From Thermodesulfovibrionales bacterium (GTDB taxonomy: Bacteria > Nitrospirota > Thermodesulfovibrionia > Thermodesulfovibrionales > SM23-35), in contig OY970295.1 of NCBI GenBank assembly GCA_963716185.1, positions 780,078 to 844,077 of the forward strand: a stretch of DNA of 64,000 bases, written 5' to 3'. Within the stretch, counting starts at the first letter, position 1; every line of letters starts with the position of its first letter. Positions 2,261 to 31,057 of the stretch are shown in pieces. The position numbers and the translations under genes were made by a program. Under the pieces are notes generated by a model that saw only the letters and a program-made list of their open reading frames with translations, was not told the origin of the DNA and searched no databases.

Positions 2261-3076
2261 TTGATGTCGGCAAAAATAAAGATACTTAACCTTCTTGCTC
2301 TCCTGGTTGTTCTGAGTTTTTTATTCATTATTGCAGGACCATTTGCCATTCAGACTTATTCCGCTCAGGAGAGTCCTTGTCTGGGGTGCCACTCCGATCT
2401 TAAGAAGCCTACAAAGAGTGTCCATGCGACGATGGCAATGGGATGCGAAACATGCCACAAGCCTGTGGAAGGTAAAAGCCATCCTGACCAGAAAGGCAGT
2501 ATGAAATTGACACAGGACGTGCCCGGGCTTTGTTATAACTGTCACGACCAGTCGAAATTCACCAAGGGTAAATCGGGTCATACTGTTGTGGGTATGTGTA
2601 CGGGGTGCCATAATCCCCATGCCTCAAATTCAGACAAGTTATTGAAGGCTGATCAACCCGAGCTCTGCTATGCCTGCCACGAGAAGTCAAAATTCGCAAA
2701 AAAGCATGTTCATTCGATAATCGCTGCCGGCGGATGCACATCATGCCATACTCCGCATATATCAAACAACCATGCGCTTCTTTTATCTAATGACATAAAT
2801 GAATTATGTAAAACTTGTCATGCGGGCAAGGATGGAAGACATATAGTTGCAATTCCGGGGAAAAGGATCCATCCCATTACGGGGAAGGACCCCTCAACTT
2901 TAACTATGATAAAGGTGCCGGACCCCGCGAGGCCGGGAAAAGAGATGGAAGTGCCGGATCCTAAGAATCCGGGAAAAGATATAACCTGTACAACCTGTCA
3001 TGACCCGCACAGTTCGGATTTTGCCAATCTTTTTCCACAAAAGAATATGTGCGCCAAGTGCCATAAATACTATTAA
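2261..3076 (+). CDS. nonaheme c-type cytochrome (paired-CXXCH type)
   Basis: 9 CXXCH motifs with the repeated pattern LCxxCH...K..H...CxxCHxPH. N-terminal signal peptide. TTG at 2261 or ATG at 2264. Confidence 0.9.
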   Translation: MMSAKIKILNLLALLVVLSFLFIIAGPFAIQTYSAQESPCLGCHSDLKKPTKSVHATMAMGCETCHKPVEGKSHPDQKGSMKLTQDVPGLCYNCHDQSKFTKGKSGHTVVGMCTGCHNPHASNSDKLLKADQPELCYACHEKSKFAKKHVHSIIAAGGCTSCHTPHISNNHALLLSNDINELCKTCHAGKDGRHIVAIPGKRIHPITGKDPSTLTMIKVPDPARPGKEMEVPDPKNPGKDITCTTCHDPHSSDFANLFPQKNMCAKCHKYY

Positions 3077-7323: not shown

Positions 7324-8115
7324 ATGCCGGATGCTCAAGAGATTACGATTAATATGTCTATATACAGTATAATAAAAGTTGTAAGTATGAGATTGAGCGT
7401 GAAAAGAAATGTAGAGTTTTACTCTCTGCTTGTTGCATTTTATATATTTTTAACTCCTCTTCTTGTTTATGCCGGTGTCGGCTCTACCAAGCATAACCTC
7501 TCTATTTCGGGTCCGGGCGCCGCAAAAGCGACACGTGAAACAGAAGTGTGTAAATTCTGTCATACGCCGCATAATTCAGATCCTGCCTATCCTTTATGGA
7601 ATCACCAACTTTCGGCGGTACGAAATTACACGCCTTTCGTGAGTGAGACACTGAAGTCATATAGGACGGCAGCAGATGCACCGCCCATTGATGGAATATC
7701 GAAACTCTGTCTCGGCTGCCACGATGGAACAGTTGCTTTAGGGGCGTTGGTTAGTAAAGGAGAAACTGTAGAAACAGTCCCTGAATCGCTGACATTTGGG
7801 ATGGAAGGTTATTTGGGAACAGACCTGTCAGGAGGGCATCCCATATCCATTATTTATGATCAAGCTTTGGTAGACAGCAGAAATTCGGACCCCGATATTA
7901 TGCACCTTAATCCGTTGCCGCTCACTGATAAAGATGTGAAGCTTTATCCCACACAGGGTGGCCGTGGAGTCCAGTGCACGTCGTGCCATGACCCGCATGG
8001 AGGCAAAGGAAATCCCGGTGAACCGCCATTCTGGCAGAAAAAAACTTACGACGAAGTATGTTTGGTGTGCCACGATAAATCGCTGCCCGTCTCGACCCCG
8101 GGAGCCGGACATTGA
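7324..8115 (+). CDS. tetraheme c-type cytochrome (paired-CXXCH type)
   Basis: 4 CXXCH motifs (CKFCH, CLGCH, CTSCH, CLVCH), plus HNLS...CxFCHTPH...PLWN. The true start is probably ATG 7387 (MRLSVKRN... followed by a signal peptide ending VYA). Confidence 0.85.
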   Translation: MPDAQEITINMSIYSIIKVVSMRLSVKRNVEFYSLLVAFYIFLTPLLVYAGVGSTKHNLSISGPGAAKATRETEVCKFCHTPHNSDPAYPLWNHQLSAVRNYTPFVSETLKSYRTAADAPPIDGISKLCLGCHDGTVALGALVSKGETVETVPESLTFGMEGYLGTDLSGGHPISIIYDQALVDSRNSDPDIMHLNPLPLTDKDVKLYPTQGGRGVQCTSCHDPHGGKGNPGEPPFWQKKTYDEVCLVCHDKSLPVSTPGAGH

Positions 8116-8129
8116 GAAGAATCTGAGAT

Positions 8130-9218
8130 ATGAATGATAAAAAATATAAACTACTACTTTTAGTACTTGTATCAGCCGCGTGCTATTTTTTAATGTCCCC
8201 TGCCTCTCTTTATTCCTTCTCTCCGGGGCAGAGCCCTCATTTTGATAAAAGCAAACTACCTAAGGGCTGCGGCAGCTGCCACAGGGGCCATGGAGTATTT
8301 AATTCCTCGATGCTGCCCGAATCGATCGATGTATTCTGCTTCAGATGCCACGGCAACAATTTGAGTACTGCGAATGTCAGAAGTGAAGGAGCGCTTTCAA
8401 AACATATCACTGCTCCTGATATCCAGAAGGAATTTAATAAACCATATCGCCACCCTGTTGAAAAAACTGTTATTACCGGTAGCAGCGAGAGTTCCTCTCG
8501 AACAAACCGGTCCGCACCGAGGCACGCTCAATGCACGGATTGTCATAATCACCACTATGCTACAAAGGAAAACACATTGGCAGGAATTAAAGGAGTAAGC
8601 GCTCAGGGTCTATCTGTTAATAAAATAAATTCCGAGTATGAGCTTTGCTTCAAATGCCATTCAAACAGCGCCAATCTTCCGCCTGATGAGAAGAACAAAG
8701 CAGACCAATTCAAGATTTCGAATCCATCCTATCACCCGATTATTGCACAGGGAAAGAATATAGATGTGCCGAGCCTTATTAATCCTTTGACCGCCTTAAG
8801 TATTATCAAATGCACAGACTGTCATAATAATGATGACCCATTTGGTCCAAAGGGGCCCCACGGCTCTTCTTACAGATACATTTTAAAGAAAAATTTTACG
8901 GAAACAGATGGTCCGGAGGGACCGTTTCAATATGAACTTTGTTACTCTTGTCACAGGCGGGAGAGCATTCTCGGCAATGAAAGCTTTTTTTACCACGACC
9001 TGCACGTCTCGGTCGTTGGCGCTTCGTGCAGGACATGTCATAACCCCCACGGCAGCAGCCAGTACGCCCATCTTATCGATTTCGATAACCTGTCTGTCAC
9101 TCCTTCAAGTAAAGGCTTCATTGAATATAGACAATTCGGAAGAAGAGCAGGGGAATGTTTTCTTAACTGCCATGGGAAAGACCACAGCCCGTTATCATAT
9201 CCCGTGAAGATCCAGTAG
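8130..9218 (+). CDS. multiheme c-type cytochrome (7 CXXCH plus 1 CX3CH)
   Basis: CGSCH, CFRCH, CTDCH, CFKCH, CTDCH, CYSCH and CRTCH, plus C-terminal CFLNCH. Signal peptide. 14-nt gap from the upstream gene. Confidence 0.85.
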   Translation: MNDKKYKLLLLVLVSAACYFLMSPASLYSFSPGQSPHFDKSKLPKGCGSCHRGHGVFNSSMLPESIDVFCFRCHGNNLSTANVRSEGALSKHITAPDIQKEFNKPYRHPVEKTVITGSSESSSRTNRSAPRHAQCTDCHNHHYATKENTLAGIKGVSAQGLSVNKINSEYELCFKCHSNSANLPPDEKNKADQFKISNPSYHPIIAQGKNIDVPSLINPLTALSIIKCTDCHNNDDPFGPKGPHGSSYRYILKKNFTETDGPEGPFQYELCYSCHRRESILGNESFFYHDLHVSVVGASCRTCHNPHGSSQYAHLIDFDNLSVTPSSKGFIEYRQFGRRAGECFLNCHGKDHSPLSYPVKIQ

Positions 9219-9295
9219 CGTAGCCGCCTTTGAAAGATTCCCTTTAACCCAATTGAATAATGCAGATGTTGTGAATCCCGAGTATGATGACGTTA

Positions 9296-9389
9296 TTGGA
9301 AAAATTTCTCCTGACCTCCCTTTGGAAAAGGGAGGGATTATTCCCCTCTTTGGCAAAGAGGGGCAAGGGGAGATTTTTCGGAAATTGTC
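9296..9389. repeat. double-hairpin intergenic repeat, family 1, copy A
   Basis: Hairpins CCTCCCTTTGGAAAAGGGAGG (9315-9335) and CCCCTCTTTGGCAAAGAGGGG (9343-9363), flanked by GGAAAAAT.. / ..ATTTTTCGG. About 90 percent identical by eye to the reverse complement of 11901-11994. Confidence 0.85.
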
Positions 9390-9419
9390 CGCTTACTTAT
9401 GAACTCCTTAATAACAACC

Positions 9420-9887
9420 TCAATTAGAAGGGCCTGAATTGATTTCTTTCAGAATCATTTCTATGACGATTGGGACCTTGCTTTCGATCTCAGGTGTTAA
9501 GCGTTCGCTTTCAGTTTCCGTATCTGCAGGTACAACTCCGATAAATATGGTTTCAGGGCACTTGCCCGTTAATTTTATCCCTTCCAGCGTTTCAATCAGG
9601 TGCAATTTTGCCGGATCCGTCTTTCCGTGCACCGTTAACGGAACTTCTTCCTGCCTAAGGCGGACTACGGAACCCGGCTGGTCATTTGTACGAAATACGT
9701 CAACGACAATCATTTTATCTTTGCCTTCGATTACATGAGGAACCATGCAGGCTGAAAGACCTACCTCCATAAAATCCACATTTTCAGGCAGCTTCATTTT
9801 CTCCAAAACTTTTGCCACATGATAACCGAAACCTAAATCAGACGCATAAGGATAACCGCAACATAATATTAAAATGTTTTTTTTCAC
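9420..9887 (-). CDS. hydrogenase maturation endopeptidase-like protein (HybD/HycI family, divergent)
   Basis: 155 aa. Aligned by eye to HybD as I remember it: ILILCCGYPYASDLGFGYHV, MIVVDV...QPGSVVRL..EEVP, IGVVP...LTPE. 4-nt overlap with the pdxJ stop. Confidence 0.6.
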   Translation of the reverse strand: MKKNILILCCGYPYASDLGFGYHVAKVLEKMKLPENVDFMEVGLSACMVPHVIEGKDKMIVVDVFRTNDQPGSVVRLRQEEVPLTVHGKTDPAKLHLIETLEGIKLTGKCPETIFIGVVPADTETESERLTPEIESKVPIVIEMILKEINSGPSN

Positions 9888-10612
9888 TTACTGATTCCTC
9901 CGAACGATATAATTAGTTTTTTCATCTCTCTTACAGCCTTCTCCATCCCAACGAGCACCGCTCTCGCTACGATACTGTGCCCTATGTAAAACCCTCTGAT
10001 GCCCTGAATAGAAGCAACTTTTGAAACATTGAAATAATTCAGACCGTGTCCTGCATTAACTTTAAGCTCCATATCCAGGGCCTGCTTCACCGAGTTTATG
10101 ACACGGGCTAATTCACTCTCCTGGTTTTTCCCTTTTGCATTTGCATACATCCCGGTATGTATCTCAACCATGTCCGAACCGATCTGTTTTGACATCTTAA
10201 TATTCCCGGAGTCAGGATTTATAAAGAGACTTACCGGCATACCCGCACCCTTGATTTTCTTTATCGCTTCACTAATATTTCTTTTCTGCGATCCTACGTC
10301 CAGCCCTCCCTCTGTGGTAAGTTCCTGTCTTTTTTCAGGCACAAGGGTAACCAGATCGGGCTTTATCCGGGCAGCGATACTTATCATTTCCTTTGTTGCC
10401 GCCATCTCAAGGTTGAGCTCAACAGGCACAAACTCCCTCAGCATCTTCAAATCCCTGTCCTGGATATGCCGCCTGTCTTCCCTGAGGTGGATCGTAATCC
10501 CGTCTGCGCCGCCGAGTATCGCCAGGGTGGCAGCCATTACAGGGTCGGGTTCGATTCCCTTCCTGGCCTCTCTTATCGTAGCTACATGGTCGACATTAAC
10601 CCCGAGCAGCAT
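9884..10612 (-). CDS. pdxJ: pyridoxine 5'-phosphate synthase
   Basis: LGVNVDHVATIREAR...GADGITIHLREDRRHIQDRD...GHGL; typical length. Confidence 0.95.
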   Translation of the reverse strand: MLLGVNVDHVATIREARKGIEPDPVMAATLAILGGADGITIHLREDRRHIQDRDLKMLREFVPVELNLEMAATKEMISIAARIKPDLVTLVPEKRQELTTEGGLDVGSQKRNISEAIKKIKGAGMPVSLFINPDSGNIKMSKQIGSDMVEIHTGMYANAKGKNQESELARVINSVKQALDMELKVNAGHGLNYFNVSKVASIQGIRGFYIGHSIVARAVLVGMEKAVREMKKLIISFGGISK

Positions 10613-10765: not shown

Positions 10766-11764
10766 TCAGCATATCCTCGGCAACTGATCACCGGAAAGCA
10801 TGTCCACAATACGGGTGCCGCCTATAGCTGTCTTTAATAAAACCATGCCGGAAGGCGATTCCCTGACCTCGCCGATGATCCGGGATTCTTTCCCCAACGG
10901 ATTTTTTCTCATTATCTTAACAAGAGGCTCAGCTACATCAGGGTTTGCAATTGCAATAAGTATTCCTTCGTTTGCAACATAAAGCGGATCAAGTCCGAGG
11001 AGTTCGCAGGCGCCCCTGACACCCGGCGGTACGGGTACGGCCTGCTCTTCGATCATTATGCAATACCCTGAATCCACCGCAATCTCTTTCAGTGTTGTTG
11101 CGAGGCCGCCCCTGGTAGGGTCTCTCATAGCGTGTATCTTTTTGGTTTTCTTCAACATCTCACTGACAAGGCCGTTAAGCGGAGCCGTATCACTCAAAAC
11201 AGACGGTTTGAAAGTGAGGCCGTTCCTCTCCGCGATAATTGAGACTCCGTGGTTGCCGATCGGACCGCTGAGAATGACCTTGTCCGACGGTCTGACATTT
11301 AAGGGTGAAACATCGACCCCTTTTTGAATTATCCCTACCCCTGAGGTATTAATAAATATGCCGTCGGCCTTGCCTTTGTTTACTACTTTTGTATCTCCGC
11401 CGACTATCTTTACTCCTGCCTTTTCTGCCGCTTCAGACATGGACGCAAGAATTTTTTTCAGATCTTCGAGAGGAAACCCTTCTTCGAGAATAAGCCCGAC
11501 CATGATGTAGAGAGGTTTTGCTCCCACCATAGAGAGGTCGTTCACAGTTCCATAAACCGCGAGTTCACCGATATTGCCGCCCGGGAAAAATATGGGAGAA
11601 ACAACATAAGAATCTGTTGTAAATGCAATACGTCCTTTATTCATGTCGTCAAGGACAGCTGAGTCGTTCAGCGTTTTAAGCTCGAATTTAGGGACCAAAT
11701 GCTCCCTGATTAACCGATACATCAACTTGCCGCCGCTGCCGTGCCCGAGAAGAATCCTCTCCAT
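10766..11764 (-). CDS. hypE: hydrogenase expression/formation protein HypE
   Basis: N-terminal LLGHGSGG and the C-terminal PRIC motif. ATG 11764 is preferred (GGAGG 8 nt upstream); the ORF extends to 11797. Confidence 0.95.
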   Translation of the reverse strand: MERILLGHGSGGKLMYRLIREHLVPKFELKTLNDSAVLDDMNKGRIAFTTDSYVVSPIFFPGGNIGELAVYGTVNDLSMVGAKPLYIMVGLILEEGFPLEDLKKILASMSEAAEKAGVKIVGGDTKVVNKGKADGIFINTSGVGIIQKGVDVSPLNVRPSDKVILSGPIGNHGVSIIAERNGLTFKPSVLSDTAPLNGLVSEMLKKTKKIHAMRDPTRGGLATTLKEIAVDSGYCIMIEEQAVPVPPGVRGACELLGLDPLYVANEGILIAIANPDVAEPLVKIMRKNPLGKESRIIGEVRESPSGMVLLKTAIGGTRIVDMLSGDQLPRIC

Positions 11765-11900
11765 TGATTTATCCTCCGATTTGGATTTACAAATCATTTT
11801 AACACATCCCTCAGAATGTTATATAGTATTGAGACTCGTTGAAACTTAGTTTCCATCAGTCTCTATTGAGCTCTATTACTAAAGAGTACATAAGAAAGCA

Positions 11901-11994
11901 GACAATTTCCGAAAAATCTCCCCTCGCCCCTCTTTGCCAAAGAGGGGTATAATCCCTCCCTTTGGAAAAGGGAGGTCAGGAGGGATTTTTCCAA
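11901..11994. repeat. double-hairpin intergenic repeat, family 1, copy B
   Basis: CCCCTCTTTGCCAAAGAGGGG and CCTCCCTTTGGAAAAGGGAGG hairpins with AAAAATC/GATTTTT-type ends. Inverted relative to copy A. Confidence 0.85.
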
Positions 11995-12039
11995 CGATGT
12001 CATCGTACTCATGAACTCTTTAGTAAGTCTCCATCTGTC

Positions 12040-12663
12040 TCATTCATCAGGCGGAATCCATATTTCCGAAAGGAATAGCGGCAACTCCGCGGCACATACC
12101 GGCCCAACCCTGACATTCCACCCGGTCAGGGTCTCGATATCTTCCTTTAGAGAAGCGGCGAGCCCGGGGATCATCAGGACCTTGTCAATCACTTTTTCCT
12201 CCATGCCTGTTTCTTTCAATGAATTCCATATTCTCTCCGCTGTCAGAGTTTGATAAATCATCGACATATCAACCGTATTACCGTCCGTATCCACAAATAA
12301 GACAAAGAATGGGCACGTCGTTGTTCCCAGGACAGTCATAAGCACCTGTTCAGTGTATTCATTATTTCCTGAGATTAGCAGCAGGGAATTGGGTGCAGGT
12401 TCGTTTAATTCTATAGCGCCGGCAAAGCCGGGTCTCGGATGCGTCAAAACCGGCACCTCAGGCCACAATTCTTTAATTCTATTGATCGCCTCTAAAGCAT
12501 AAGACTGGTTGCGGCTTATTAATGAACAATCCCGAGGTTTTTTAATTCCTGATTTTATTGCATCAATAAATTCCATGCACGAAGAGAGACCGCATTGCGA
12601 ACAGGCTTGATTGAGATATCTTTGAAAATCTATCTTCTCTAAATATAAATCTGCCGAGAGCAA
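12040..12663 (-). CDS. Fe-S protein with an RnfB/CdhE-type N-terminal 4Cys motif and a CFeSP-like C-terminal domain
   Basis: C21-x2-C24-x4-C29-x16-C46. From memory, the C-terminal part resembles the C-terminal Rossmann-like domain of the corrinoid Fe-S protein large subunit. TTG start 1 nt after the hypD stop. Confidence 0.6.
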   Translation of the reverse strand: MLSADLYLEKIDFQRYLNQACSQCGLSSCMEFIDAIKSGIKKPRDCSLISRNQSYALEAINRIKELWPEVPVLTHPRPGFAGAIELNEPAPNSLLLISGNNEYTEQVLMTVLGTTTCPFFVLFVDTDGNTVDMSMIYQTLTAERIWNSLKETGMEEKVIDKVLMIPGLAASLKEDIETLTGWNVRVGPVCAAELPLFLSEIWIPPDE

Positions 12664-13735: not shown

Positions 13736-13823
13736 TTGTTTCTCCTCTTAATTTTTTAGGTTACAGCAAATCCTAAATTCTAATATCCAATTCTAAACAT
13801 AACGTTATAAATAAAATGCGCAT

Positions 13824-13934
13824 GTCATTCCCGCAATCCCGAAAGCTTTCGGGAGTCGGGAATCCTTCCGAAACAACCCCCTGGCCCCCTTTTGTAAGGG
13901 GGAACAAGAAAGATTCCGGACAAGCCGGAATGAC
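13824..13934. repeat. composite GTCATTCC-type repeat, family 3, with a nested 18-bp palindrome
   Basis: GTCATTCCCGCAA [TCCCGAAAGCTTTCGGGA, 13837-13854] GTCGGGAATCC ... CCCCCTTTTGTAAGGGGG ... GATTCCGGACAAGCCGGAATGAC. The terminal arms are inverted. Confidence 0.8.
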
Positions 13935-13985
13935 AGCCTATACGCATATGTTATGAGCATTTAGTATTTCGAGCTTGGAATTTTT

Positions 13986-16448: not shown

Positions 16449-16509
16449 CGGCAGGCTTTTGAATACTCTGCATTTGTTAACCGTCTCAGAATAAAAGCAA
16501 CATTAATTA

Positions 16510-16590
16510 TAAAATCCCTCCCAACCTCCCTTTGCCAAAGGGAGGAATAACTCCCATCTTTGGCAAAGAGGGGTGAGGGGAGATTTTCAG
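16510..16590. repeat. double-hairpin intergenic repeat, family 1, copy C
   Basis: CCTCCCTTTGCCAAAGGGAGG and CCCATCTTTGGCAAAGAGGGG hairpins with AAAATCCC / GGGAGATTTT ends. Confidence 0.8.
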
Positions 16591-16723
16591 AATAATATAG
16601 CTCCAATTTTGAGATCCTCATAACGGGTAATTATATAAAAGATCGAGGACCCGAAGGGTCGGGGGTAAGAGAGTTGATAGTTTAAGAGTTTTTATTGAAT
16701 TCTCGAATCCTTGAATCCCTTTT

Positions 16724-17368
16724 TTACTTCACCAGAGACTGAAGCCAGTTTGTCCATTCACTTATTCCTTCACCCGTCTTGCACGAAACCTCGAATATCT
16801 TCAATTGCGGGTTTAGGGACAAGGAATCCTTCTTCATCTTTCCGATATCCGCATTTGTATAAGGCAGGAGATCGATCTTATTAAGAACCAGAGCCGACGA
16901 TTCCTGAAACATCAACGGATATTTCAGGGGTTTGTCATGGCCTTCAGCTATACTGAGAAGCATGACCTTCATGTCCTCGCCGACCTTAAATTCAGCAGGA
17001 CAGACGAGATTTCCCACGTTTTCTATTATAAGCAGGTCAAGATCGTTAAGCGGCAGTTCATACATCACTTCTCTGATCATGTTTGCATCCAGATGGCATG
17101 CGCCTCCGGTATTTATCTGAACAACAGGGATACCGAGTTTTTCGATCCTCTGTGCGTCATCGGTACCCGCAATATCTCCCTCTATCACGCCCATCTTTAT
17201 TTTGCCGTTGATACCCTGAATGGTCTTCTCTATTAGAGATGTCTTACCCGCTCCCGGGCCGCTCATAATATTCATCACATAAACACCGGCCTCATCAAAC
17301 ATCTTCTTATTTTCAGCGGCAAGCCTGTCATTAGCCTCCAAAATATTCGTCACGACCTTGACCTTCAT
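16724..17368 (-). CDS. hypB: hydrogenase nickel incorporation GTPase HypB
   Basis: P-loop GPGAGKTS, ENVGNLVCPA, NKIDL. ATG 17368 is preferred (GGAGG 7 nt upstream) and overlaps the hypA stop (TGATG). Confidence 0.95.
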   Translation of the reverse strand: MKVKVVTNILEANDRLAAENKKMFDEAGVYVMNIMSGPGAGKTSLIEKTIQGINGKIKMGVIEGDIAGTDDAQRIEKLGIPVVQINTGGACHLDANMIREVMYELPLNDLDLLIIENVGNLVCPAEFKVGEDMKVMLLSIAEGHDKPLKYPLMFQESSALVLNKIDLLPYTNADIGKMKKDSLSLNPQLKIFEVSCKTGEGISEWTNWLQSLVK

Positions 17369-17712
17369 CAAAATACCTCCATCTCATCGATATTTAATTC
17401 CCGTCCCGTCTCGATACGAAATGATTTGTTTCCGCACAGAGGACATGACAAAACATAAGCCTCTTCCACAGTAAAATTCTTGCTGCAGCTGTTACAAAAA
17501 CCGCTTACAGGGATTTCGTTTATTGTCAGGACAGCCTTCTCAGCGATGGTCCCTGTTTTAAGCGCCTCAAAGGCAAAAAGCAGGGAATCTGACATGACCC
17601 CGGAAGCCTTGCCTATCTTTACCTTTATTAATTCAATACCTGAAAAACCTTGTTTCTTACAACTATCTATTGCAATCTCGAGTAAACCCTGGGCTATGGA
17701 AACTTCATGCAT
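17368..17712 (-). CDS. hypA: hydrogenase maturation nickel metallochaperone HypA
   Basis: N-terminal MHEVSIA and paired CxxC motifs (CNSC...CPLC). The longer ORF to 17823 overlaps the upstream gene and is Arg-rich, so I reject that extension. Confidence 0.9.
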   Translation of the reverse strand: MHEVSIAQGLLEIAIDSCKKQGFSGIELIKVKIGKASGVMSDSLLFAFEALKTGTIAEKAVLTINEIPVSGFCNSCSKNFTVEEAYVLSCPLCGNKSFRIETGRELNIDEMEVF

Positions 17713-18028
17713 TCTGTTCTTTAGACAACCTCTCTTTCTCTTTTTCGTACGCTTCCTTGCCGGCCTCGATGGCAGTCGATATGATCGACTTCTTTTCCTC
17801 GTAGAATCCCTTGCCCTTGTCAATGCCGCCGGTTATTTTTTCTTTCACATCTTCCACATAACCCTTCGCCTTCTCTTTCACGTCCTCTGTAAGCTCTTTT
17901 ATCTTCTGTCTGGTTTCACGACCTGACTGGGGCGCCAGAAGCAAAGCAAAGCCCGCGCCTACCATGCCGCCGAGTAAAAACGAAAGGAATATACTTCCTG
18001 CGCTATATCCGCATTCTTCTTCTCTCAT
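17705..18028 (-). CDS. YtxH-like protein
   Basis: FLLGGMVGAGFALLLAPQSGRETRQKIKE followed by a Lys/Glu-rich helix, typical of the YtxH family. Confidence 0.75.
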   Translation of the reverse strand: MREEECGYSAGSIFLSFLLGGMVGAGFALLLAPQSGRETRQKIKELTEDVKEKAKGYVEDVKEKITGGIDKGKGFYEEKKSIISTAIEAGKEAYEKEKERLSKEQNA

Positions 18029-30964: not shown

Positions 30965-31057
30965 CAAACTCCCCTCCTATTTTAGGAGGGGATTAAGGGG
31001 TGGTAAGCCGTAATCGGACAACCACCCCGACCCCTCCTTACCAAGGAGGGGAGTTTG
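30965..31057. repeat. triple-hairpin element with perfect 14-bp terminal inverted repeats
   Basis: CAAACTCCCCTCCT ... AGGAGGGGAGTTTG. Internal hairpins CCCCTCCTATTTTAGGAGGGG, GGGGTGGT..ACCACCCC and CCCCTCCTTACCAAGGAGGGG. Confidence 0.8.

What the first reader, a model, noticed from the sequence alone, without database searches (positions are those of the whole stretch)
12040..12663. Mini corrinoid-Fe-S-protein-like gene translationally coupled to hypD
Seen: a 207-aa ORF starts 1 nt after the hypD stop. It carries C21-x2-C24-x4-C29-x16-C46, encoded at about 12526-12603. Established: this spacing is the 4Fe-4S motif of the N-terminal domain shared by RnfB and by the large subunit of the corrinoid Fe-S protein (AcsC/CdhE). 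From memory and unverified: the remaining ~140 aa (LLLISGNN...FVLFVDTDGNTVDMS...VLMIPGLAASLKEDIETLTGWNVRVGPVCAAELPLFL) resemble the C-terminal Rossmann-like corrinoid-binding domain of that protein (pattern VTTNF...LLVxDTxGxSV...LIIPGxVA...LEExxGWxVxVGPxEAxxIPxFL). The central TIM barrel is absent. The cap-helix region (AWAAGKF in CFeSP) reads SMIYQTL here. Inference: this is a redox or cofactor-binding accessory of the HypCDE machinery, possibly compensating for the missing hypC or supplying electrons to HypD.
Basis: partly seen in the sequence, partly recalled or inferred. Interest (0 to 1): 0.65.

Follow-up and report, generated by a model that had tools for sequence, protein, structure and literature searches.

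The report
TIM-barrel-less corrinoid iron-sulfur protein gene

Summary
A 207-aa ORF (12040-12663, minus strand) starts at a TTG 1 nt after the hypD stop. It carries C21-x2-C24-x4-C29-x16-C46, encoded at 12526-12603.

Residues 11-64 match the [4Fe-4S] domain of the CFeSP large subunit (AcsC/CdhE). Residues 75-204 match its corrinoid-binding domain. The central TIM barrel of about 255 residues is absent. The AlphaFold model (pLDDT 85) hits only CFeSP and HgcA.

The protein belongs to a conserved, unstudied family of about 200-aa proteins in Nitrospirota and Thermodesulfobacteriota. Databases call them hypothetical, Fe-S-binding, or wrongly "CODH/ACS gamma subunit".

The Hyp-accessory inference is not supported.
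- The gene lies between hypD and hypE only in one Thermodesulfovibrionales clade.
- Sister clades couple it just as tightly to hisG or SIR2.
- 46 related hypD loci have hypD next to hypE without it.
- hypC is absent from these clusters whether or not the gene is present.

A sister subfamily (31% identity) sits beside RACo-type activases and MtaB/MtaC genes. That supports a corrinoid role for the architecture.

Best reading: a stand-alone corrinoid/[4Fe-4S] redox or methyl-carrier protein with an unknown partner.

The parts
12040..12663 (-). Gene for the 207-aa mini corrinoid/Fe-S protein. TTG start at 12663-12661, TGA stop at 12042-12040.
   Evidence: ORF list and sequence. 455 homologues at E<=1e-3, and 41 invariant columns in 58 aligned homologues.
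12466..12663 (-). N-terminal [4Fe-4S] domain, residues 1-66, of the RnfB/CFeSP type (PF04060).
   Evidence: Pfam FeS E 5.5e-6, 26.5 bits against a cut-off of 23. Family profile positions 11-64 match CFeSP residues 6-59, with weaker matches to RnfB chains.
12526..12603 (-). Codons from C21 to C46, carrying the cluster ligands C21-x2-C24-x4-C29-x16-C46.
   Evidence: Read directly from the translation. All four Cys are invariant in A1.
12421..12465 (-). Conserved linker, residues 67-81 (WPEVPvLTHPRPgfa). It replaces the roughly 255-residue TIM barrel of AcsC/CdhE.
   Evidence: W67, P68, V70, P71, P76 and R77 are invariant in A1. The profile match to 2h9a skips chain residues 60-314.
12043..12420 (-). 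C-terminal Rossmann-like corrinoid-binding domain, residues 82-207.
   Evidence: PF03599 C-terminal part, E 1.4e-18. CdhE, HgcAB-like and HgcA NCBIfam models match this region below their cut-offs. PDB CFeSP matches by sequence. Foldseek hits to CFeSP and HgcA only.
12241..12270 (-). Cap-helix region, residues 132-141 (DMSMIYQTLT). M133 aligns with CFeSP residue 374. By motif spacing it also aligns with HgcA Cys93.
   Evidence: Gap-free alignment to 2h9a with an offset of +241. D132 is nearly invariant in both subfamilies. Position 133 is M in the main clade and N, H, C or S in distant ones. HgcA contact residues come from PMC7305189.
12665..13735 (-). hypD. Its stop codon lies 1 nt upstream of the mini gene's start.
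   Evidence: Pfam HypD E 3e-152. The TAA-N-start junction is conserved in the window and six loci (L003, L010, L027, L081, L084, L085).
10766..11797 (-). hypE (AIR-synthase-like), 242 nt downstream of the mini gene.
   Evidence: Pfam AIRS and AIRS_C. C-terminal PRIC motif seen in the translation.
11876..12026 (.). Palindromic REP-like repeat element. It fills most of the gap between the mini gene and hypE.
   Evidence: Inverted and direct repeats shared with 9280-9414 and 16484-16614. The core hairpin motif gives 8 matches against 0 expected.

Best explanation
[quoted passage not shown] It is best treated as its own family of about 200-aa proteins.

Shown:
- An N-terminal Cys4 motif of the RnfB/CFeSP type.
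- A C-terminal domain homologous in sequence and predicted fold to the CFeSP/HgcA corrinoid-binding domain.
- A short, highly conserved Pro-rich linker joining the two in place of the TIM barrel.

Inferred:
- C21, C24, C29 and C46 hold a [4Fe-4S] cluster.
- The Rossmann-like domain binds a corrinoid base-off through its nucleotide tail. The proposed contacts are S98 and T104 in the SGNNEYT loop, the DTDG-x-TV loop, and the PG and GP loops.
- The cluster passes a low-potential electron to return Co(II) to Co(I). The protein would then act as a self-reactivating corrinoid carrier, handling methyl groups or the cofactor itself, for a partner encoded elsewhere.
- Without a TIM barrel it cannot form the AcsC/AcsD heterodimer. 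It is therefore not part of acetyl-CoA synthase.

Its place between hypD and hypE is synteny inherited within one Thermodesulfovibrionales clade. The gene is probably co-transcribed with hypD there, but it is not a general or required component of Hyp maturation.
For: Architecture: searches give two separate matches to CFeSP, at residues 6-59 and 315-444. One search gives Foldseek E 2e-9 to 1e-7 for five CFeSP large-subunit entries (4c1n, 2ycl, 4djd, 9fzy, 2h9a) and 3e-6 for the HgcA model, with the next hit above 1e-3. The AF2 model has pLDDT 85 and pTM 0.83.

Selection: 41 invariant columns in 58 sequences include the four Cys, T104, T126, G128, P166, G187 and P188. T104, P166, G187, P188 and P195 remain invariant at 27-43% identity.

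Cofactor contacts: the residues listed for HgcA and CFeSP (T60, T66, V91, A153; PMC7305189) have the same spacing as S98, T104 and V131 and the PGLA loop.

Corrinoid role of the architecture: the full-length homologous sister subfamily (hhalign probability 100%, 198 columns) lies beside or close to a RACo-type reductive activase, with MtaB, MtaC-type B12-binding, URO-D, CobW or CobT genes alongside, in 5 of 7 contexts examined. A natural fusion joins the mini protein to a second FeS domain and a ferredoxin domain (P0205).

Not Hyp-specific. Neighbours differ by clade (hypD, hisG, SIR2, PilZ/DUF885, response regulator/GlgC). Loci with hypD next to hypE and no mini gene are the majority.
Against: No experiment shows Fe-S or corrinoid binding.

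The cap helix has lost the AAGK motif shared by CFeSP and HgcA, reading DMSMIYQTL instead. The lower face of the cofactor site is therefore different, and binding could have been lost or changed.

A few family members lack the cysteines (P0126, P0139).

The window-type subfamily never has RACo, MtaB/C, URO-D or CobW genes within 10 kb. The support from the sister subfamily is therefore indirect.

The 1-nt hypD junction is conserved in the window and six loci. Synteny across about 25 loci leaves room for a lineage-specific link to Hyp.

No partner is identified, so the 'carrier' role is a guess.
Confidence: 0.55

Rival explanations
1. Lineage-specific Hyp accessory. In this Thermodesulfovibrionales clade the protein is made together with HypD. 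It would either donate low-potential electrons to the HypD [4Fe-4S] cluster or take part in C1-derived synthesis of the CO ligand.
For: - The start codon lies 1 nt after the hypD stop, and this junction is conserved in the window and six loci.
- The gene lies between hypD and hypE in all 8 metagenome loci with HypD at 80% identity or more, and hyp genes lie near it in 17 genome loci.
- Its N-terminal domain is the electron-transfer domain of RnfB.
- The electron donor to HypD and the anaerobic source of the CO ligand are both unresolved. The latter is suspected to come from C1 metabolism (PMC12134894).
Against: - Most of the family lies outside hyp clusters. That includes sister-clade orthologues at similar identity, which sit 1-6 nt after hisG.
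- 46 HypD loci have hypD next to hypE with no mini gene. These include clusters with the same gene order at 72-77% HypD identity.
- In some hyp-linked loci, opposite-strand ORFs or 1.3-2 kb separate hypD from the gene (L007, L024, L015, L016).
- pdxJ, which is unrelated to maturation, is embedded in the same cluster.
- There is no correlation with hypC absence.
- A REP-like palindrome separates the gene from hypE.
Confidence: 0.1
2. A redox or regulatory protein that keeps the fold but no longer binds a corrinoid. It would be, for example, an Fe-S electron carrier or sensor whose Rossmann-like domain binds another ligand or a protein partner.
For: - The cap helix is diverged, with AAGK lost in both subfamilies.
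- There are new family-specific invariant residues absent from CFeSP: D132, E193, P195, and C190 in the main clade.
- Genomic contexts are scattered and housekeeping in type, with response regulators and PilZ proteins as neighbours in some clades.
- Two contexts of the sister subfamily are ArsR, permease and thioredoxin clusters rather than methyltransferase clusters.
Against: - The loops that hold the nucleotide tail in CFeSP and HgcA are the best-conserved parts of the family.
- The sister subfamily sits next to RACo-type corrinoid activases and B12 genes.
- All significant fold and sequence matches are to corrinoid-binding domains.
Confidence: 0.2
3. A degenerate remnant of an acsC/cdhE gene that suffered an internal deletion, or a chance ORF with no function.
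For: Both ends match AcsC/CdhE with the middle missing. One version held by public sources including NCBI is a truncated 178-aa protein.
Against: - Hundreds of full-length homologues of about 205-215 aa exist in two phyla and in archaea: 455 and 334 hits, and several dozen 50%-identity clusters of about 200 aa.
- The residues are strongly conserved, including the linker that spans the 'deletion'.
- Composition matches that of the neighbouring genes.
Confidence: 0.02

Closest known systems
Corrinoid iron-sulfur protein large subunit (AcsC / CdhE; PDB 2H9A, 2YCL, 4DJD, 4C1N, 9FZY)
   Same: It has the same N-terminal Cys-x2-Cys-x4-Cys-x16-Cys [4Fe-4S] domain and the same C-terminal Rossmann-like corrinoid domain. 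These are the best sequence, profile and fold matches.
   Different: - The central TIM barrel (CFeSP residues about 60-314) is missing, so the protein cannot pair with AcsD/CdhD.
- The cap helix reads DMSMIYQTL instead of LTAWAAGKF.
- It has an extra invariant Cys190 and the E193-x-P195 signature.
- No acs or cdh genes are nearby.
- It scores 95.9 bits against the 306-bit equivalog cut-off.
HgcA corrinoid-binding domain (mercury methylation)
   Same: It has a homologous corrinoid-binding domain: NCBIfam HgcA and HgcAB-like matches and Foldseek hit 9a0b_A. Like HgcA, it places a potentially coordinating residue (Met133) where HgcA has Cys93.
   Different: It has no N(V/I)WCA(A/G)GK motif, no transmembrane domain and no adjacent hgcB. 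It carries its own Fe-S domain instead.
RnfB N-terminal Fe-S domain (PF04060)
   Same: It has the same cluster-binding motif and domain, with weak profile matches to RnfB chains 8ahx_B, 7zc6_B and 9eri_B.
   Different: No ferredoxin-type dicluster domain was detected by Pfam, and no rnf genes were recognised in the ORF map of the window. A membrane anchor was not looked for.
MtaC-type corrinoid proteins with RamA/RACo activases (methyltransferase systems)
   Same: This is the likely functional analogue: a small corrinoid carrier that needs reduction to Co(I). The sister subfamily of the mini architecture is encoded inside such clusters.
   Different: The B12-binding fold family is different (PF02310/PF02607 against the CFeSP type). 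The window-type subfamily has no such neighbours, and it carries the reactivating cluster on the same chain.
Hyp maturation proteins (HypC, HypD, HypE)
   Same: It is encoded between hypD and hypE, and is probably co-transcribed with hypD in this clade.
   Different: It has no sequence or fold relation to any Hyp protein. It is absent from most hyp clusters.

Membership tests
CFeSP large subunit (AcsC/CdhE) | N-terminal [4Fe-4S] domain with C-x2-C-x4-C-x16-C | tested here: met
   PF04060 scores 26.5 bits against a cut-off of 23. Profile positions 11-64 match CFeSP residues 6-59. The Cys residues are invariant.
CFeSP large subunit (AcsC/CdhE) | Central TIM-barrel domain that pairs with the small subunit | tested here: not met
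   The protein is 207 aa. PF03599 covers only profile positions 302-383 of 387. The profile match to 2h9a skips residues 60-314.
CFeSP large subunit (AcsC/CdhE) | C-terminal corrinoid-binding Rossmann-like domain | tested here: met
   Residues 83-202 align gap-free to 2h9a residues 324-443, E about 1e-12. Foldseek E 2e-9. Cofactor binding itself was not tested.
CFeSP large subunit (AcsC/CdhE) | Curated equivalog score (NF003195) and acs/cdh gene neighbourhood | tested here: not met
   95.9 bits against a cut-off of 306. No other CFeSP-like gene is in the 64-kb window.
HgcA | Cap-helix motif N(V/I)WCA(A/G)GK with the Co-ligating Cys | tested here: not met
   The region reads NTVDMSMIYQT. The motif definition comes from PMC10083202.
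HgcA | C-terminal transmembrane domain, adjacent hgcB, and curated score | tested here: not met
   The protein ends at residue 207 with the corrinoid domain. Its neighbours are hypD and hypE. NF040863 scores 36.2 bits against a cut-off of 275.
Pfam PF04060 (FeS) and PF03599 (CdhD) domain families | Score above the Pfam gathering threshold | tested here: met
   26.5 against 23, and 67.3 against 24.8. The PF03599 match is partial, covering the C-terminal part only.
[NiFe]-hydrogenase maturation (Hyp) accessory | Conserved genomic linkage with hyp genes across lineages | tested here: not met
   hyp genes lie near the gene in 17 of 80 family loci, all among the roughly 30 Nitrospirota/Thermodesulfovibrionales-type loci. 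The gene is absent from 46 hypD-hypE loci.
[NiFe]-hydrogenase maturation (Hyp) accessory | Physical or functional interaction with HypC, HypD or HypE | not testable with these tools
   No multimer prediction or experiment was available.
HypC substitute | N-terminal Met-Cys motif and OB fold; presence correlated with absence of hypC | tested here: not met
   The sequence starts MLSADLY. The fold is Rossmann-like. hyp clusters lacking hypC occur both with and without the gene.
Mini FeS-plus-corrinoid-domain family (about 200 aa; defined here) | FeS domain joined directly to the corrinoid domain, with T104, P166, G187, P188, P195, D132 and E193 conserved | tested here: met
   A1 and A2 alignments. 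End-to-end homology to the sister subfamily, hhalign probability 100%.

The most novel reading that the evidence does not exclude
In this Thermodesulfovibrionales lineage the mini corrinoid/Fe-S protein has been recruited into the Hyp pathway. It would serve either as the missing low-potential electron donor to the HypD cluster or as a C1-handling component in anaerobic synthesis of the CO ligand. A less radical version is also open. The family may be a new class of self-reactivating corrinoid carriers or cofactor chaperones, with an unusual Asp-Met pair on the lower face. It would work with RACo and Mta systems in one subfamily and with unknown partners in the other.
Probability: 0.07. Interest if true: 0.85.

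Novelty: new variant of a known kind. Interest (0 to 1): 0.42.

Why it matters
Published phylogenies of PF03599 recognise three groups: CdhD, CdhE and HgcA (PMC10083202). This gene belongs to an unstudied fourth form that keeps only the cluster domain and the corrinoid domain. That is the minimal unit needed to hold a corrinoid and reduce it.

The family has hundreds of members in sulfate-reducing and related anaerobes. Automated annotation calls them hypothetical or mislabels them as CODH/ACS gamma subunits. That mislabel can falsely suggest Wood-Ljungdahl capacity in metagenome-assembled genomes.

A small soluble protein of this kind would be a tractable model for Co(II)/Co(I) reactivation chemistry.

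The hoped-for link to two open questions in [NiFe]-hydrogenase maturation would be important: the electron donor to HypD, and the anaerobic source of the CO ligand. It is not supported by comparative genomics.

Tried and rejected
- hypC compensation: rejected. A motif scan for hypC-like ORFs found none in the window or in L001-L080. The same scan found hypC upstream of hypD in most loci with HypD at 61% identity or less. It found none in the loci listed down to about 61% HypD identity (L081-L129), whether or not the mini gene is present.
- A universally conserved neighbour: none found. ORF clustering over 80 loci gave only clade-specific neighbours.
- Methyltransferase or activase partners near window-type genes: tblastn with RACo, MtaB, MtaC, URO-D, CobW, ArsP, Trx3, SBF and DGC queries found nothing in L001-L160 or the window, apart from the mini gene's own FeS domain.
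- A second CFeSP or ACS gene in the window: none.
- Horizontal-transfer signal: GC and GC3 are similar to the neighbouring genes.
- Literature: four searches found no description of this architecture or of a corrinoid link to Hyp.
- Promoter and terminator scans: no better than shuffled sequence.
- Source organism: the look-ups returned only a 1.3-kb contig and no name for P0004. The clade assignment rests on homologues.
- HypD-mini complex: I did not attempt a fused-chain prediction, because the tool reports no inter-domain confidence.
Full report
**1. The observation**

The ORF at 12040-12663 on the minus strand is 207 aa and begins with TTG at 12663-12661. The hypD stop codon is at 12667-12665, so a single base (12664) separates the two genes.

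These codons span 12526-12603. The closest GGAG lies 15 nt upstream, so initiation probably depends on coupling to hypD rather than on a strong ribosome-binding site. That reading comes from the sequence and is an inference.

The long N-terminus is genuine. In 58 aligned homologues A4, Y7, Y16, C21, C24, G25 and C29 are invariant. A version of this protein held by public sources including NCBI, P0004, is 178 aa and 100% identical over 86% of the query. That fits a start at M30, which would leave it without three of the four cysteines.

**2. What the protein is**

Pfam finds the RnfB/CFeSP Fe-S domain (PF04060, residues 21-46, 26.5 bits against a cut-off of 23). It also finds only the last part of PF03599, with residues 113-194 matching profile positions 302-383 of 387 (E 1.4e-18).

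NCBIfam models for CdhE, HgcAB-like and HgcA all match residues of about 76-202, far below their equivalog cut-offs.

phmmer against PDB sequences aligns residues 83-202 without gaps to residues 324-443 of the *Carboxydothermus* CFeSP large subunit (2h9a, E 8e-13). It gives similar matches to 4c1n and 4djd.

A profile of 29 diverse family members matches 2h9a at E 9e-36 in two stretches: 11-64 to 6-59, and 75-204 to 315-444. The protein is therefore the CFeSP large subunit without residues about 60-314, which form the TIM barrel.

An AlphaFold2 model built on 58 sequences has mean pLDDT 85 and pTM 0.83. In Foldseek against the PDB its only hits below E 1e-3 are five CFeSP large-subunit entries and the HgcA model 9a0b.

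**3. Cofactor-site details**

The gap-free alignment gives the rule that mini residue n corresponds to CFeSP residue n+241.

- M133 falls on CFeSP residue 374. From my own knowledge this is the Thr on the lower face of the cobalt. I did not verify that here.
- PMC7305189 lists the HgcA residues taken to contact B12 as in CFeSP: T60, T66, V91 and A153, with C93 as the cobalt ligand.
- Their spacing matches S98, T104, V131 and M133 and the PGLA loop. This mapping is by motif spacing and is an inference.

Conservation fits this reading:

| Residue | Pattern |
|---|---|
| T104, P166, G187, P188, P195 | invariant even at 27-43% identity |
| D132, E193 | nearly invariant; absent from CFeSP |
| Position 133 | Met in the main clade; Asn, His, Cys or Ser in distant members |
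| C190 | invariant in the close family; Ser in the distant subfamily |

A few members have lost the cluster cysteines (P0126 and P0139).

The tail-binding loops are conserved, but the lower-face helix is remodelled. Corrinoid binding is likely but unproven.

**4. The family**

The word-indexed search returned 455 homologues at E<=1e-3. The 120 best hits are mostly 205-215 aa and 60-95% identical to the query. Where they carry a name, it is "hypothetical", "(Fe-S)-binding protein", or wrongly "CO dehydrogenase/acetyl-CoA synthase gamma subunit".

The exhaustive search of 50%-identity representatives found several dozen clusters of about 200-aa proteins. Genuine CFeSP large subunits of 430-480 aa begin to appear only from E of about 1e-19 downwards.

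In species-representative genomes the family occurs in Nitrospirota/Thermodesulfovibrionales (58-73% identity). It also occurs in many Thermodesulfobacteriota at 37-46% identity: Desulfobaccales, Syntrophobacterales, Desulfarculaceae and Desulfobacterales. One Chloroflexi MAG carries it too.

A published PF03599 phylogeny recognises only CdhD, CdhE and HgcA (PMC10083202). Four literature searches found no description of this short form.

**5. Is it a Hyp accessory?**

The window has hypA, hypB, hypF, hypD, the mini gene, hypE, pdxJ and a HycI-type protease, all on the minus strand, with no hypC.

- **Family-centred survey.** Of 80 family loci, 17 have hyp genes near the mini gene, and all 17 are among the roughly 30 Nitrospirota/Thermodesulfovibrionales-type loci. 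In most of them the gene lies between hypD and hypE. None of about 50 Thermodesulfobacteriota loci does.
- **Tree.** In a neighbour-joining tree the hyp-linked genes fall largely in one clade.
- **Sister clade.** There the gene lies 1-6 nt downstream of hisG and faces a znuABC-like transporter.
- **Other clades.** The gene follows a SIR2 gene by 18 nt, sits between PilZ and DUF885 genes, or precedes a response regulator and glgC.
- **HypD-centred survey.** The mini gene is present in 8 of 8 loci with HypD at 80% identity or more. hypD lies directly next to hypE without it in 46 loci. These include L090, L092, L095 and L133, at 72-77% identity, with the same hypF-hypD-hypE-pdxJ order.
- **hypC.** It is absent next to hypD in every locus listed down to about 61% HypD identity (L081-L129), with or without the mini gene. 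It is present in most more distant loci. The gene therefore does not compensate for hypC loss.
- **Junction.** The 1-nt junction is conserved only in the window and six loci. In other hyp-linked loci the gap ranges from 4 nt to 2 kb, sometimes with an opposite-strand ORF between.
- **pdxJ.** This unrelated gene is embedded in the same cluster, which shows the cluster carries passengers.

Co-transcription with hypD in this organism remains likely.

**6. Evidence on function from a sister subfamily**

A second subfamily of the same length and architecture aligns end to end with the window's family (hhalign probability 100%, 198 columns, 31% identity). It has 334 members at E<=1e-10, in Deltaproteobacteria and Methanomassiliicoccales.

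In five of seven contexts examined it lies beside or close to a RACo-type reductive activase. MtaB, MtaC-type B12-binding proteins, a URO-D (MtaA-like) methyltransferase, CobW or CobT are encoded alongside. In the other two contexts it sits in clusters of ArsR, a permease, thioredoxin and DsbD.

One natural fusion joins the mini protein to a second FeS domain and a ferredoxin domain (P0205).

This supports the view that the architecture is a corrinoid protein subject to reductive activation. The window-type subfamily has none of these neighbours within 10 kb, so the support is indirect.

**7. Most likely mechanism**

Shown: the domain composition, the conservation and the predicted fold.

Inferred:
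- The Cys4 motif binds a [4Fe-4S] cluster.
- The Rossmann-like domain holds a corrinoid base-off by its nucleotide tail.
- The cluster returns inactive Co(II) to Co(I), as the equivalent domain is thought to do in CFeSP.

Without a TIM barrel the protein cannot form the AcsC/AcsD pair. The upper face of the cofactor would be exposed to a partner. I therefore read it as a stand-alone, self-reactivating corrinoid carrier (for methyl groups or for the cofactor itself) with an unidentified partner. Confidence is 0.55.

| Rival reading | Confidence |
|---|---|
| Corrinoid-free redox or regulatory protein | 0.2 |
| Lineage-specific Hyp accessory | 0.1 |
| Gene remnant or chance ORF | 0.02 |

**8. 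Novelty and value**

This is a new variant of a known kind: an uncharacterised, domain-minimised branch of the CFeSP/HgcA superfamily.

It matters for annotation, because the "CODH/ACS gamma subunit" label is wrong and misleading. It could also be a useful minimal model for corrinoid reactivation.

The attractive link to the open questions of the HypD electron donor and the anaerobic CO ligand source (PMC12134894) has little support. I put it at about 7%.

**9. Limits**

- No cofactor, expression or interaction data exist.
- The source genome beyond the window could not be read, so the location of hypC and the presence of acs or cob genes are unknown.
- Two structure libraries were unavailable.

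Noticed in passing
L165:2610-4866; L169:3337-8731; L167:6001-12630; L166:2028-6642; L168:1-6621; L161:659-8999; L163:4252-11051: A sister subfamily has the same mini architecture and about 31% identity, with the signature GNFxxTV / SVDNA / VGPVSGFELP. In 5 of 7 contexts it is encoded beside or close to a RACo-type reductive activase, with MtaB, MtaC-type B12 proteins, URO-D, CobW or CobT alongside. In the other 2 it lies in clusters of ArsR, an ArsP-type permease, thioredoxin and DsbD. It appears to be undescribed.
   Followed up: partly
window 9280-9414, 11876-12026, 16484-16614: A palindromic REP/MITE-like element of about 135 nt occurs three times, all in intergenic gaps of the hyp cluster. 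It contains the twin hairpins CCTCCCTTTGGAAAAGGGAGG and CCCCTCTTTGGCAAAGAGGGG. Weaker core matches lie at 31032 and 55326. It may punctuate transcription between the mini gene and hypE.
   Followed up: partly
window 12576-12663: A version of this protein held by public sources including NCBI (P0004, 178 aa) is 100% identical over 86% of the query, which fits a start at M30. It would lack C21, C24 and C29. Conservation of residues 4-29 in homologues shows that the TTG at 12663 is the true start.
   Followed up: yes
L081-L160 (HypD-centred loci); window 13736-13985: hypC is absent from the hypF-hypD junction in the whole Nitrospirota-like HypD lineage sampled (L081-L129, down to about 61% HypD identity). 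It is present as hypF-hypC-hypD-hypE in most more distant loci. Where hypC lies in these genomes is unknown.
   Followed up: partly
window 9884-10612: pdxJ (pyridoxine 5'-phosphate synthase) is embedded between hypE and the HycI-type protease. It keeps its place directly after hypE in many related loci. It is an unrelated passenger in a hyp cluster.
   Followed up: partly
P0205 (383 aa, from the representative search): A natural fusion joins a mini FeS-plus-corrinoid protein to a second PF04060 domain and a ferredoxin-type 4Fe-4S domain. It resembles a soluble HgcA-HgcB-like fusion.
   Followed up: no
L004, L006, L009, L011 (mini gene at about 10001 or 887): In a sister Thermodesulfovibrionia clade the orthologue starts 1-6 nt after hisG (ATP phosphoribosyltransferase) and is followed by a convergent znuABC-like transporter.
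   Followed up: yes
window 2261-3076 and 7324-9218: Several + strand ORFs upstream of the hyp cluster look like secreted multihaem cytochromes, with many CxxCH motifs in the translations. I did not examine them.
   Followed up: no
window 17368-17823: The ORF upstream of hypB is 151 aa, but a HypA-like N-terminus (MHEVSIAQGLLEI) begins internally. The mechanical ORF probably overextends the true hypA start.
   Followed up: no
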